Sequence record: OQ955832.1
DNA: 57,756 nucleotides
Strand: one strand, 5' to 3'
DNA from: Escherichia phage vB_EcoS_PJ16
The position numbers were made by a program, and so were the translations under genes. Shown here piece by piece: positions 51,906-54,465 of the stretch. The notes under the pieces were generated by a model that was not told the DNA's origin, did no database searches, and was given only the letters and a program-made list of their open reading frames with translations. How positions within the stretch are numbered: position 1 is the stretch's first letter; the number at the start of each line of letters is the position of its first letter.

Positions 51906-52297
51906 TAATAGTCGTTACAGGCGGTCGTGACTTCAACGACAGAACAGCGGTATTTTCAGCATTAGGGTTACTTCACAAACAATTCCCGGTTACCGAACTG
52001 ATTGAAGGCGGTGCATCAGGTGTTGATAACCTGTGTAAGCAATGGGCGCAATTACACGGTATTCCTGTACGTAGTTGCCCGGCAGCATGGGACGATCTGA
52101 CTGTACCAGGTGCGGTTGTAAAACAGGGTAAGCATGGGCCTTATAACGCTGTTGCAGGTCATCAACGTAATCAGGCAATGTTAGAGGGTGAACCACGCCC
52201 TACATACGGTGTTGTGTTCCCCGGTGGGCGTGGTACTGCCGACATGCATCGTCGTATGTTGAAAGCTGGTTTAACTGTGTGGGTTCCATATCCTTAA
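51902..52297 (+). CDS. SLOG/LOG-like Rossmann-fold protein (DUF2493-like)
   Basis: VVTGGRDF, GGASGVD and PGGRGTADM motifs. Confidence 0.5.
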   Translation: MIIVVTGGRDFNDRTAVFSALGLLHKQFPVTELIEGGASGVDNLCKQWAQLHGIPVRSCPAAWDDLTVPGAVVKQGKHGPYNAVAGHQRNQAMLEGEPRPTYGVVFPGGRGTADMHRRMLKAGLTVWVPYP

Positions 52298-52334
52298 AAT
52301 AATTCTTGACAGATTACCAACCTCCCCCGATAAT
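52290..52334 (+). promoter_or_regulatory. sigma70-type promoter with UP element (conserved family)
   Basis: TAAAATAATTCTTGACAGATTACC; -35 52306-52311, 17-bp spacer, -10 GATAAT 52329-52334. Confidence 0.6.
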
Positions 52335-52368: not shown

Positions 52369-53136
52369 ATGGCTAACATTAACTCCCTTCGCAAGCTGTC
52401 TGATACCGATAAAACCAACGTAAAACGTGGTAATGCGTATCGTATTGATCCGCGTATTATCAAGATTCGTCCAGGACATAACCCACGCGGTGTGTTTACC
52501 GACAACTACTGGGAAACTGAAGCAGCACTGGCACACATTGAAAACTTTCGTCAGGCTTATACTAACGGCGATTTCGTTCCACCCATCGTGGTACAGGTTG
52601 TTGACGGTGTTCCGTATGTCCAGGATGGTGAGCATCGTTTACGTGGTGTATTGGCAGCTATTGACGCCGGGACGCCGATTCTGACAGTAGACGTTGTTGA
52701 ATCGTCCGGTGACGAACTACAACAGACCCTGACACTGTTAAAAGGTAATGAAGGTAAACCGTGGTCCCCTGTTGAACGTGCTGTTATTTACGGTCGTTTC
52801 CGTTCATATGGCATGAGTGTTGAGCAGATCGCTACACAGGTCGGTAAAACCGTTCAGCACGTTTACGAACAACTGAATATTCTTGATATGCCGCTGGAAC
52901 TTAAACGTCGTATTCAGAACGGCGAAATCAGCGCGTCAGCAGCCATTCGCCAGTTTAAAGCAGGTGATAAAGAACCAGTAGTAACGCGTCGTCCGCCTGC
53001 TAAACTGGTACGGTCTGCAGTGGAAGCAATCCGTGGTGAATGGTCTGTAACCCGTTCGGAAGGTGGTAAAGTCCTGGTTGAACTTACCGCTGAACAGTTT
53101 GAAGCGTTAAAAGCACTGAAGGAGCACCAGTTATGA
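52369..53136 (+). CDS. ParB-like nuclease domain protein
   Basis: KIRPGHNPRG and DGEHRLRGVLAA resemble ParB/sulfiredoxin N-domain motifs. Confidence 0.65.
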   Translation: MANINSLRKLSDTDKTNVKRGNAYRIDPRIIKIRPGHNPRGVFTDNYWETEAALAHIENFRQAYTNGDFVPPIVVQVVDGVPYVQDGEHRLRGVLAAIDAGTPILTVDVVESSGDELQQTLTLLKGNEGKPWSPVERAVIYGRFRSYGMSVEQIATQVGKTVQHVYEQLNILDMPLELKRRIQNGEISASAAIRQFKAGDKEPVVTRRPPAKLVRSAVEAIRGEWSVTRSEGGKVLVELTAEQFEALKALKEHQL

Positions 53137-53312
53137 AAAACCGTAAAGCAAAGATTCTGTTAGTTCGTAGAAACGCTCCTGGCGTCTGGCAGTGGGTGAG
53201 ACTCAGCAACCGACGGATGGGGTTGATGAAATATTACGGGATGATGGATTGCAGTTTTTGCAAAAAAACCCAGCGCGGCGCAAAACCGCTGGAAAAACCA
53301 CTTTCGCATTAA
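53133..53312 (+). CDS. Hypothetical small basic protein, tandem paralog 1 (59 aa)
   Basis: Not in track; ATGA-coupled to ParB-like gene; NRKAKILLVRR...WVRLSNRRM shared with next gene. Confidence 0.35.
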   Translation: MKNRKAKILLVRRNAPGVWQWVRLSNRRMGLMKYYGMMDCSFCKKTQRGAKPLEKPLSH

Positions 53313-53323
53313 AGGAGAGTGAT

Positions 53324-53521
53324 ATGGCAACCAACAATCGTAAAGCCAAGATGCTTATTTCCCGTGTATACAGCCGTTGCTATCCCAGCCAGTGGTTGAG
53401 AGTTAGCAATCGCCGTATGGTGTTGTACTTATATTCTGGAATTGCCAGAGATGGAATCAAAGATAAGCGTAGCGCGGCGCAAAACCGCTGGAAAAACCAC
53501 TTGCGTACTAAAGGAGAGTGA
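53324..53521 (+). CDS. Hypothetical small basic protein, tandem paralog 2 (65 aa)
   Basis: Track ORF 53192-53521 trimmed to ATG 53324 after AGGAGAG RBS. Confidence 0.4.
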   Translation: MATNNRKAKMLISRVYSRCYPSQWLRVSNRRMVLYLYSGIARDGIKDKRSAAQNRWKNHLRTKGE

Positions 53522-53522
53522 T

Positions 53523-53786
53523 ATGGCAACTTTAACAAAAAAAGAACGGGCATGGTTGAATGAATTACAGGACGTTCTTGATCGCTGCCCATCACCGAAA
53601 AAAATTGGTTTTTACACCATTGGCGATAAAAGCATTTACCTGTATGACCTACGCCGCATGGATGAAATCATGGAGGCTCTTGATAATCGTTCGTCGGTGG
53701 ATTGGTGTGTTGCTGTCCATGATATGAATGCCGGATTTGATGAAAAGATTTTGTTCCCCTCATCAGTTGAAAGCACTGCGGGTTAA
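53523..53786 (+). CDS. Hypothetical protein (87 aa)
   Basis: Track ORF 53442-53786 trimmed to ATG 53523 after repeated RBS element. Confidence 0.45.
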   Translation: MATLTKKERAWLNELQDVLDRCPSPKKIGFYTIGDKSIYLYDLRRMDEIMEALDNRSSVDWCVAVHDMNAGFDEKILFPSSVESTAG

Positions 53787-53796
53787 GGAGTAACAC

Positions 53797-54465
53797 ATGA
53801 CCACTATTACCAAAGAGCGACTGCTGACAATCAGGCAATGGCGCGAAACATACGGACCTGGTAGCAATGTTGTACTGCCAGCAGAAGAAGCGGAAGAACT
53901 GGCACGAATTGCTCTGGCATCGCTGGAAGCAGAACCAGTTGCTTATATTTTCAAACATCCGGCCGGGAAATTATTCTGGGCTTTAACGGATGAAAGCAAT
54001 AAAGAGCAACCGGACGTTATTCCTGTTTATGCTGACTCACCTGCGCCGGTTGTGCCGGATGAAATAGACGTAAACGATGTACCAAGGGCGGTGACATATT
54101 TCAAGACACACAGAGATTGTTACGCAGATGGCTGGAACGCCTGCCGCGCCGCCATGCTTCAGTCCGGAAACTTTCGGGAAAACAAGAATTCGTCAACCAA
54201 TAATTTTCGGGAAATCGCGGAAACGTCAACCAACTATCCGGTAATTCCTAGTGAGGTGTTGTCCGCAATCCTGAAGGTTGCCAAGATTCGTGCCGATTTC
54301 GATGATTTTGACGGTGACAGGCGAGGTATCGGTGATTGTCTGGATGAGGCTGAGCAAGAGCTTATCGTTACCATTAACAAATATGCCAGTCAGTTAGCAG
54401 CAGAACCGATAGCGACTAATGAAAATCGTTGGGTTGCCAAACTAACCGGGAGTAAAAAGAAATGA
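53797..54465 (+). CDS. Hypothetical protein (222 aa)
   Basis: Track ORF. Confidence 0.5.
   Translation: MTTITKERLLTIRQWRETYGPGSNVVLPAEEAEELARIALASLEAEPVAYIFKHPAGKLFWALTDESNKEQPDVIPVYADSPAPVVPDEIDVNDVPRAVTYFKTHRDCYADGWNACRAAMLQSGNFRENKNSSTNNFREIAETSTNYPVIPSEVLSAILKVAKIRADFDDFDGDRRGIGDCLDEAEQELIVTINKYASQLAAEPIATNENRWVAKLTGSKKK

What the first reader, a model, noticed from the sequence alone, without database searches (positions are those of the whole stretch)
53133..53525. Tandem duplication of a small basic gene with frame-shifted C-termini
Two adjacent ORFs (53133-53312, 53324-53521) share NRKAK..L..R...QW.R.SNRRM and each ends in a copy of the roughly 60-bp element gcgcggcgcaaaaccgctggaaaaaccac...aaaggagagtgatATG. 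That element contains a hairpin (ccagcg...cgctgg) and supplies the RBS and start of the next gene. The two copies read the element in different frames, indicating recent duplication followed by divergence.
Basis: seen in the sequence. Interest (0 to 1): 0.45.

Follow-up and report, generated by a model that had tools for sequence, protein, structure and literature searches.

The report
Paired small phage genes, one frameshifted
Two old, diverged versions of a small, very basic phage gene of unknown function sit side by side, probably joined by recombination at a shared gene-end sequence, and the first copy carries a one-base insertion that changes its tail; this is ordinary phage mosaicism, not a recent duplication.

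Summary
ORF1 (53133-53312) and ORF2 (53324-53521) are homologous, and each ends in a 60-nt element (57/60 identical, 199 nt apart) that holds the gene tail, the Shine-Dalgarno site and the next ATG. The copies are two old subtypes (A and B) of an uncharacterised enterobacterial phage and prophage family (phrog_1380). Their bodies are near saturation at synonymous sites (pS about 0.65). Each has 96-100% identical counterparts elsewhere, often as a single copy. The same A-B-next-gene module occurs in a sibling 9NA-like phage and in about 57-kb plasmids.

The frame difference comes from one extra A in ORF1. This genome, Escherichia phage vB_EcoS_PJ16, has AAAAAAA at 53262-53268 where relatives have AAAAAG. 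Removing one A restores a 62-aa protein with the conserved tail SAAQNRWKNH.R.KGE. The A7 allele has 0 exact matches in three public collections; the intact allele has 171. The insertion may be a real mutation or a sequencing error.

The hairpin exists in copy 1 only. Tandem pairs are common in the family (63 of 165 arrays). The protein function stays unknown: there is no Pfam, NCBIfam, PADLOC or PDB match. Interest is low.

The parts
52306..52334 (+). Sigma-70-like promoter (TTGACA-17-GATAAT, 11/12) upstream of the parB-like gene. It is the likely promoter of the operon that contains the pair.
   Evidence: A promoter is annotated at the equivalent position in AVIO78A. This is a consensus match only.
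52369..53136 (+). ParB-like gene (255 aa). Its TGA stop overlaps the ORF1 ATG (ATGA), and AAGGAG lies 8 nt upstream of that ATG.
   Evidence: HTH_ParB, E 1.3e-6; sequence.
53133..53312 (+). ORF1 as it reads in this record (59 aa). It is the A-type member of family phrog_1380. The first 45 residues are normal and the last 14 (TQRGAKPLEKPLSH) are out of frame. It equals GenBank WKV24590.1 of phage vB_EcoS_PJ16.
   Evidence: (matches only positions 1-46 of the 62-position profile).
53262..53268 (+). A7 run, the site of the one-base insertion. Relatives have AAAAAG (6 nt) here.
   Evidence: The A7 allele has 0 exact matches in viral, genome and metagenome collections. The intact allele has 110 + 61 matches.
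53269..53322 (+). Remainder of the ancestral ORF1 reading frame (+1 relative to ORF1 as called). It encodes PSAAQNRWKNHFRIKGE*.
   Evidence: The repaired 62-aa protein matches phrog_1380 over 1-62/62 with E 3e-39. It is the same length as the L020 gene and 97% identical to it (2 substitutions: A15D, S41G).
53272..53331 (+). Copy 1 of the 60-nt element: gene tail, AGGAG, stop, and the first 8 nt (ATGGCAAC) of ORF2.
53324..53521 (+). ORF2 (65 aa), the intact B-type member of phrog_1380 with the MATNN-type start.
   Evidence: 2-62/62, E 1.5e-31. The identical protein P0001 is on 120 contigs.
53471..53530 (+). Copy 2 of the 60-nt element: ORF2 tail, AGGAG, TGA, and the first 8 nt (ATGGCAAC) of the next gene.
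53523..53786 (+). Downstream gene (87 aa, phrog_1714, function unknown). It is the third gene of the 669-nt module shared with the plasmids.
   Evidence: E 2.7e-50; window 53136-53804 is 97.6% identical to pHB37-3.

Best explanation
The window is Escherichia phage vB_EcoS_PJ16, a virulent 9NA-like siphophage. ORF1 and ORF2 are two long-diverged subtypes (A and B) of one family of 58-65-aa, strongly basic accessory proteins (phrog_1380; 933W L0068 and phiV10 p50/p51 are members). Family members share a conserved head (MKNRKAK or MATNNRKAK), a highly variable middle, and a tail (SAAQNRWKNHLRTKGE*) that is almost invariant even at the nucleotide level.

The tail runs straight into a Shine-Dalgarno site, a stop and the next ATG (AAAGGAGAGTGAT(A/G)TG). 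This junction is reused in front of at least eight different downstream genes.

Inferred step: this conserved gene-end cassette, together with homology inside gene A and in the downstream gene, served as the substrate for homologous recombination. That recombination placed B behind A and moved the A-B-phrog_1714 module between about 57-kb plasmids and 9NA-like phages. This would explain why only the 60-nt tails of the two copies are nearly identical.

Shown: ORF1 of this genome has one extra A in a homopolymer, so its last 14 codons are read out of frame and it stops 10 nt early. It still stops inside the Shine-Dalgarno region of ORF2, so coupling to ORF2 should survive. The insertion is either a recent real mutation (I estimate about 65%) or a sequencing error (about 30%).

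The protein function is unknown. My best guess is nucleic-acid binding, based on the net charge of about +13 in 65 residues.
For: Identity of the window: the ORF1 protein equals WKV24590.1 on a 57,756-bp contig; the accession OQ955832.1 is given in PMC12137930.

Family membership: ORF2 and the repaired ORF1 match phrog_1380 end to end (E 1.5e-31 and 3e-39), while ORF1 as called matches only positions 1-46 of 62.

Old divergence: pS is 0.64 in the head, 0.68 in the middle and 0.20 in the tail, and pN/pS is about 0.5.

A and B exist separately elsewhere. A alone occurs in AVIO78A, 933W and RCS47; B alone occurs in Sasha and Stx2a phages.

The same tandem with an intact A occurs in a sibling phage contig, L020, where the extra A is the only indel in 1804 aligned nt. 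It also occurs in pHB37-3-type plasmids at 97.6% over window 53136-53804.

The window's gene A is itself mosaic: AVIO78A/933W-like up to 53216 and plasmid-like from 53252.

The tail and junction are conserved across six core types and many downstream genes.

Tandem pairs are common in the family: 63 of 165 arrays.

Rarity of the frameshift: 0 exact matches against 171 for the intact allele. Its exact protein is on 1 contig, while intact forms are on at least 1000 contigs.

Coding status: third-position changes are seen in the conserved SNRRM core, AGGAG lies 6-8 nt upstream of each ATG, and 22 of 23 distinct members have intact frames.
Against: No recombination event was observed. Breakpoints are inferred from a handful of informative sites. 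Loss of B from an A-B ancestor by recombination between the two 60-nt repeats would explain the single-copy relatives just as well.

The low synonymous divergence of the tail could also reflect an unknown nucleotide-level function or gene conversion.

No read data were available, so a real mutation cannot be told from a sequencing error.

There is no expression or proteomic evidence for either ORF.

The structure model is weak (pLDDT 64.9, pTM 0.29) and found no fold match, so the nucleic-acid-binding guess rests on charge alone.
Confidence: 0.8

Rival explanations
1. Recent in-situ tandem duplication of one gene in this phage, followed by divergence that included a change of reading frame in the tail.
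For: There are two adjacent homologous ORFs with a 95%-identical 60-nt repeat at the same relative position. The closest annotated phage, AVIO78A, has one copy and is shorter by exactly one 199-nt unit.
Against: The bodies are 54-77% identical, with synonymous sites near saturation. ORF2 is 100% identical to a protein on 120 other contigs, and ORF1 is 96-97% identical in DNA to genes of 933W and RCS47. The same pair exists in L020 and in plasmids. The frame change is a single-base insertion absent from all of them.
Confidence: 0.03
2. The frame difference is an artefact. The true PJ16 sequence has six bases (A6 or AAAAAG) at 53262-53268, ORF1 is an intact 62-aa gene, and the extra A is a homopolymer sequencing or assembly error.
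For: The insertion lies in a homopolymer. It is unique to this record, with 0 matches against 171 for the intact allele, and the protein is on 1 contig. Removing it restores a perfect family match.
Against: Across 44 kb aligned to AVIO78A, the other net frame-changing indels map mostly to intergenic or terminator regions. Two of them (AVIO78A 7154 and 23344) fall within annotated CDS coordinates and were not resolved. The assembly therefore does not look riddled with homopolymer errors in genes. The site also carries a G-to-A substitution, and a second substitution lies 9 nt upstream. Similar +1 alleles occur independently in other records.
Confidence: 0.3
3. Programmed recoding. The A7 run is a slippery site where +1 ribosomal slippage, or RNA-polymerase slippage that drops one A, yields both the 59-aa product and the full 62-aa product.
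For: A +1 shift of tRNA-Lys on AAA_AAA_A re-pairs perfectly and gives exactly ...CKKPSAAQNRWKNHFRIKGE*. A stable hairpin starts 2 nt after the run. At least three other members carry independent +1 homopolymer insertions into the same alternative frame.
Against: The two-frame layout is not conserved: the intact single-frame gene is the rule in 171 loci and on at least 1000 contigs. Each shifted allele is on 1-4 contigs and sits at a different run. From general knowledge, seven A's is short for efficient slippage. No product data exist.
Confidence: 0.05
4. The 60-nt element is a functional nucleic-acid element in its own right (a regulatory RNA hairpin, a terminator or a protein-binding site), which would explain its nucleotide-level conservation.
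For: Tail pS is 0.20 against about 0.65 elsewhere. The core CAAAACCGCTGGAAAAACCAC is almost invariant across core types. The copy 1 region folds better than shuffles (z -3.0 for 70 nt).
Against: Copy 2 does not fold better than shuffles (z +1.45). Left-arm variants (GTAGCG, GAAGCG, CAAGTG, ACACCG) are not compensated in the invariant right arm. There is no U-run, so it is not an intrinsic terminator, and the scan found nothing beyond chance on the + strand. Rfam gave no match at E up to 1. Protein constraint, the SD/start signals and frequent recombination are enough to explain the conservation.
Confidence: 0.1

Closest known systems
phrog_1380 family of uncharacterised small prophage proteins (933W L0068, VT2-Sakai p08, phiV10 p50/p51, Sasha gp78, AVIO78A_092)
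   Same: ORF2 and the repaired ORF1 match the profile end to end. They share the MKNRKAK/MATNNRKAK head, the SN(R) core and the AAQNRWKNH tail. They have the same early or accessory-region context next to Ea22-like, DUF551 and phrog_1714 genes. phiV10 and RCS47 also carry tandem pairs.
   Different: In most tandem pairs (62 of 63 surveyed) the upstream copy has a diverged tail (..QNRRKKGYAVR*) that overlaps the next ATG. Here both copies keep the full conserved tail and junction, an arrangement otherwise seen only in L020 and the pHB37-3-type plasmids. ORF1 here is frameshifted.
Short conserved boundary (linker) sequences at module junctions of mosaic phage genomes, proposed as sites of homologous recombination (concept as summarised in PMC3029335, citing earlier lambdoid-phage work)
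   Same: A short, nearly invariant sequence sits at the gene boundary. It is flanked by unrelated or highly diverged sequence on both sides. The one-copy/two-copy difference between AVIO78A and this phage is bounded exactly by it.
   Different: Here the conserved stretch is partly coding (a conserved protein tail) and also carries the translation signals for the next gene. Its conservation may therefore be selected for those reasons, not for recombination. No recombination was demonstrated.
Homopolymer frameshift alleles: pseudogenes or contingency-type variants, and dnaX-type or IS-type recoding sites on A-runs (from general knowledge)
   Same: A one-base change in an A-run switches the reading frame near the 3' end of a gene. 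The run could in principle allow tRNA-Lys or RNA-polymerase slippage.
   Different: The run is not conserved and is created by a private change (AAAAAG to AAAAAAA). There is no evidence of two products. The frequency in the family is well under 1%, as expected for sporadic mutation or error.

Membership tests
phrog_1380 (small basic prophage protein, function unknown) | Full-length match to the 62-position profile | tested here: met
   ORF2 matches 2-62/62 with E 1.5e-31. ORF1 with one A removed matches 1-62/62 with E 3.3e-39. ORF1 as called matches only 1-46/62.
phrog_1380 (small basic prophage protein, function unknown) | Conserved head (N)RKAK and core SN(R) | tested here: met
   R6, K7, A8, K9, S28 and N29 are invariant in the 17-sequence alignment, and both window ORFs have them.
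phrog_1380 (small basic prophage protein, function unknown) | Conserved tail SAAQNRWKNH.R.KGE in frame with the head | tested here: inconclusive
   Met for ORF2. For ORF1 the tail is present only in the +1 frame after the A7 run. Whether that is real depends on the accuracy of the sequence.
Recent tandem gene duplication | Copies similar along their whole length, with low synonymous divergence | tested here: not met
   Overall nucleotide identity is 68%. pS is 0.64-0.68 outside the tail and 0.20 in the tail only.
Recent tandem gene duplication | Each copy closest to the other rather than to genes elsewhere | tested here: not met
   ORF1 is 96-97% identical to 933W and RCS47 genes. ORF2 is 100% identical to P0001 on 120 contigs. 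ORF1 and ORF2 are 53% identical as proteins over 38 aa.
Programmed frameshift or transcriptional slippage site | Slippery homopolymer at the frame junction | tested here: met
   AAA_AAA_A lies at 53262-53268, and a +1 re-pairing gives the exact family tail.
Programmed frameshift or transcriptional slippage site | Slippery site and two-frame layout conserved in homologues | tested here: not met
   There are 0 exact matches to the A7 allele and 171 to the intact one. All 22 other distinct members examined are single-frame.
Programmed frameshift or transcriptional slippage site | Two protein products detected | not testable with these tools
   No proteomic or ribosome-profiling data were available.
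Intrinsic terminator or structured RNA element | Conserved stem supported by covariation, plus a U-run for a terminator | tested here: not met
   The stem forms in copy 1 only. Left-arm variants are not compensated. There is no U-run. Rfam gives no match.
Conserved boundary sequence of mosaic phage modules | The same short sequence at junctions between otherwise unrelated neighbours | tested here: met
   AAAGGAGAGTGAT(A/G)TG occurs 221 times in 1.4 Mb of related loci. Of these, 175 follow the family tail and 46 follow other genes, and at least 8 different genes lie downstream.
Conserved boundary sequence of mosaic phage modules | Recombination breakpoints map to the sequence | tested here: inconclusive
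   The AVIO78A-versus-window indel (one 199-nt unit) is bounded by the repeat. Other breakpoints lie inside gene A (53217-53251) and near 53790-53810.

The most novel reading that the evidence does not exclude
phrog_1380 genes may be swappable cassettes. In this reading the nearly invariant head and tail act as recombination handles that let phages, prophages and plasmids exchange and stack hypervariable cores. The core diversity would be driven by an arms race with a host target or defence. The A/T runs in and just before the tail would act as slippage-prone switches that repeatedly toggle the protein between the conserved basic tail and a short alternative tail (..AKPLEKPL(S/A)H). At least four independent +1 alleles enter that same frame.
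Probability: 0.1. Interest if true: 0.5.

Novelty: new member of a known kind. Interest (0 to 1): 0.2.

Why it matters
The main value is as a correction. What looks like a fresh duplication with frame divergence is a pair of old paralogues joined through a conserved gene-end cassette, plus a single-base frameshift that should be checked against the reads of OQ955832.1.

It also gives a clean small example of gene exchange between a virulent phage lineage and resident plasmids or prophages through short conserved junctions. It flags a widespread, completely uncharacterised family of small basic proteins, found on thousands of enterobacterial contigs, that has conserved ends and a hypervariable centre. 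Finally, it shows that public annotations of this family are inconsistent: genes are over-extended in some records and missing in others.

Tried and rejected
Function searches all failed.
- Pfam gave only a sub-threshold ClpX zinc-finger hit on the frameshifted ORF1.
- NCBIfam, PADLOC, a PDB sequence profile search and Rfam gave nothing.
- AlphaFold2 with a 17-sequence alignment gave a weak alpha-beta3-alpha model (pLDDT 64.9, pTM 0.29). Foldseek against the PDB returned nothing better than E 2.4. I considered an AP2-like or integrase-arm-like fold from the topology and dropped it for lack of any match.
- An exhaustive profile search of 1.84 billion representative proteins found only 44 relatives. 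All are short enterobacterial proteins or fusion artefacts with no informative domain.

Other leads that went nowhere:
- A literature search for 933W L0068 found nothing.
- The 9NA-like genomics paper (PMC6819911) is not held.
- A gapped pattern for the two-tail tandem found nothing in viral contigs or genome contigs.

Ideas rejected:
- That ORF2's ATGGCAAC start was borrowed from the downstream gene. MATNN is a common start variant of both A and B types elsewhere.
- A minus-strand terminator-like hit at 53289-53275. It is at chance level: 7 found against 5.5 expected.
- The apparent co-variation between CACTTG/GAGAGTGA and CACCTG/GAGACTGA. It does not preserve pairing, so I treated it as haplotype linkage.

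Full report
**What is in the sequence.** The window carries two adjacent ORFs on the + strand, 53133-53312 (59 aa) and 53324-53521 (65 aa). They are homologous: BLASTP gives 20/38 identical residues, E 4e-8. Each ends in a copy of a 60-nt element, at 53272-53331 and 53471-53530. The copies are 57/60 identical and 199 nt apart. No shuffled control of the window gave such a match.

The element contains the last 15-17 codons of the gene, an AGGAG Shine-Dalgarno site, the stop codon and ATGGCAAC, the first eight bases of the next gene. Because 199 is 1 mod 3, the two ORFs read the element in different frames: QRGAKPLEKPLSH* and SAAQNRWKNHLRTKGE*.

The exception is the hairpin. CCAGCG/CGCTGG forms in copy 1 (-11.3 kcal/mol, z -1.9). 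In copy 2 the left arm is GTAGCG, and the region folds no better than shuffles (z +1.2).

**What genome this is.** The exact ORF1 protein is GenBank WKV24590.1 of Escherichia phage vB_EcoS_PJ16, on a contig of 57,756 bp, the length of the window. The accession OQ955832.1 is given in PMC12137930. PJ16 is a virulent 9NA-like (Nonanavirus/Sashavirus) siphophage. Its closest annotated relatives are AVIO78A, PDP46 and Sasha, at about 96% identity.

The pair lies in a rightward operon of small early or accessory genes. The order is a promoter-like site at 52306-52334, a parB-like gene at 52369-53136 whose stop overlaps the ORF1 start, then ORF1, ORF2 and a phrog_1714 gene at 53523-53786.

**Why the frames differ.** ORF1 has AAAAAAA at 53262-53268. 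AVIO78A, 933W, RCS47, pVP441, the pHB37-3-type plasmids and a sibling phage contig (L020) all have AAAAAG there. They read on as ...CKKPSAAQNRWKNH.R.KGE*.
- Deleting one A from the window gives a 62-aa protein that matches profile phrog_1380 over all 62 positions (E 3e-39). ORF1 as called matches only positions 1-46.
- Over 1804 nt aligned between the window and L020 (96.7% identical), this A is the only indel.
- Exact-pattern scans found the A7 allele 0 times in the viral, genome and metagenome collections. The intact allele was found 110 + 61 times.
- The frameshifted protein is on one contig. Intact forms are on at least 1000 contigs.

So the frame-shifted C-termini are a private one-base insertion in ORF1, not divergence between duplicates.

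**Is the insertion real?** I cannot decide between a real mutation and a sequencing error. Favouring a real change: across 44 kb aligned to AVIO78A, the other net frame-changing indels map mostly to intergenic or terminator regions. Two of them (AVIO78A 7154 and 23344) fall within annotated CDS coordinates and were not resolved. The record therefore does not look riddled with homopolymer errors in genes. The site also carries a G-to-A substitution, which by itself is synonymous (AAG to AAA) and lengthens the run. Favouring an error: it is a homopolymer and the allele is unique to this record.

**The copies are old paralogues, not a recent duplication.** With the frame repaired, a Nei-Gojobori count between the two copies gives pS 0.64 (head), 0.68 (middle) and 0.20 (tail), with pN/pS about 0.5. 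The conserved QW.R.SNRRM.L core shows third-position changes (AAC/AAT, CGA/CGC, CGG/CGT), as expected of real coding sequence.

Each copy has near-identical counterparts elsewhere:
- The A type (ORF1) is 96-97% identical in DNA to single-copy genes of Stx phages such as 933W and of P1-like RCS47.
- The B type (ORF2) is 100% identical to a protein on 120 contigs. It is the single copy at this very locus in Salmonella phage Sasha.

The same parB-A-B-phrog_1714 layout, with A intact, occurs in a 57,365-bp metagenomic 9NA-like contig (L020). A 669-nt A-B-phrog_1714 module (window 53136-53804, 97.6% identical) occurs in about 57-59-kb StbB/HicAB plasmids of E. coli and Klebsiella.

**The family.** phrog_1380 has no Pfam, NCBIfam or PADLOC model. 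It is confined to enterobacterial phages, prophages and plasmids. Members are 58-65 aa and strongly basic; ORF2 has 16 K/R and 3 D/E residues.

They share an invariant head (MKNRKAK or MATNNRKAK), an SN(R) core and an A.QNR..N tail, around a middle that differs almost completely between at least six types. The tail is nearly invariant even at the nucleotide level (core CAAAACCGCTGGAAAAACCAC), whatever the core type and whatever gene follows.

The following junction, AAAGGAGAGTGAT(A/G)TG, occurs 221 times in 1.4 Mb of fetched related loci. Of these, 175 follow this tail and 46 follow other genes. At least eight different genes lie downstream.

Tandem pairs are common. Among 165 arrays in loci retrieved by an A-type pattern (a biased sample), 63 were pairs. 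In 62 of them the upstream copy has a diverged tail (..QNRRKKGYAVR*) overlapping the next ATG. Only one, a pHB37-3-type contig, had two full tails like the window.

**How the arrangement most likely arose (inference).** The pattern of conserved ends and a variable centre, the exact bounding of the one-copy/two-copy difference by the 60-nt repeat, and mosaic breakpoints inside gene A all point to repeated homologous recombination. Gene A of the window is AVIO78A/933W-like up to 53216 and plasmid-like from 53252. L020 switches earlier, between 53139 and 53167.

This fits the idea of short conserved boundary sequences at mosaic junctions (PMC3029335). I cannot tell whether B was inserted into an A-only phage or lost from an A-B ancestor. 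AVIO78A has a different tail variant (HCRINKEN*), so it is not a simple deletion derivative of the window type.

**Consequence of the frameshift.** ORF1 as written loses the most conserved part of the protein. It still terminates at the TAA inside TAAAGGAG, 11 nt before the ORF2 ATG, so translational coupling to ORF2 should persist (read directly from the sequence).

A +1 slip of tRNA-Lys on AAA_AAA_A would restore the exact family tail. Three other members carry independent +1 homopolymer insertions into the same alternative frame:
- L197, also with an AVIO78A-type tail: CAAAAC to CAAAAAC.
- L158: GAAAAAC to GAAAAAAC.
- P0076: T5 to T6.

Each is on only 1-4 contigs. I therefore regard them as sporadic mutations or errors, and I give programmed recoding about 5%.

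**Function.** It remains unknown. AlphaFold2 with 17 sequences gave a low-confidence alpha-beta3-alpha model (pLDDT 64.9, pTM 0.29). It had no PDB fold match better than E 2.4 and no PDB sequence match. An exhaustive profile search found only 44 relatives, none informative. Nucleic-acid binding is a guess from charge alone.

**Verdict.** This is a new instance of a known kind of thing: mosaic phage accessory genes plus a homopolymer frameshift. Interest is low. It has a modest side interest in the architecture of the family and in the exchange of a three-gene module between virulent phages and plasmids.

Noticed in passing
window 54169-54233: A 33-nt imperfect direct repeat (78% identical) lies inside the 222-aa ORF 53797-54465. 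It gives a repeated NFRE...STN peptide.
   Followed up: no
window 52291-52294 (versus L001 1008-1426): PJ16 and the sibling contig L020 lack the roughly 420-nt gene that lies between the YAcAr-like gene and parB in AVIO78A (AVIO78A_090) and Sasha (gp76, annotated HNH endonuclease). This is a presence/absence polymorphism typical of a free-standing homing endonuclease.
   Followed up: partly
window 53136-53804; L006, L007, L011, L012-L019, L021: Circular StbB/HicAB 'plasmids' of about 57-59 kb from E. coli and Klebsiella (pHB37-3 CP053083, CP124823, CP101793 and many draft contigs) share this three-gene module at 97.6% with virulent 9NA-like phages. This implies recent exchange between a lytic phage lineage and resident elements.
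   Followed up: partly
L003 1619-1906 (933W ST933Wp08); L002 1599-1871 (phiV10p51); L004 1501-1689 (RCS47): Public annotations handle this family inconsistently. Two downstream genes are extended N-terminally through the preceding tail in another frame, and RCS47 leaves its intact A-type gene unannotated.
   Followed up: partly
L197 (- strand 2352-2531), L158 2858-3037, protein P0076: Independent +1 insertions in other A or T runs of A-type genes all shift into the same alternative frame and give 59-aa products ending ..PLSH..PFAH or ..PLAH. Each is on only 1-4 contigs.
   Followed up: partly
L010 1490-1525 and 46 other junctions in the fetched loci: Ea22-like genes upstream of MATNN-type members end in CGCTGGCATTCGCATCAAAGGAGAGTGAT. 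This looks like a remnant of the family tail with a 10-nt deletion, and suggests past fusions or deletions at this junction.
   Followed up: no
L001 1007-2268 (AVIO78A_090 and _091): In AVIO78A the label 'ParB-like protein' sits on the gene that Sasha calls an HNH endonuclease, while the true ParB homologue is labelled hypothetical. This is a likely annotation slip.
   Followed up: no
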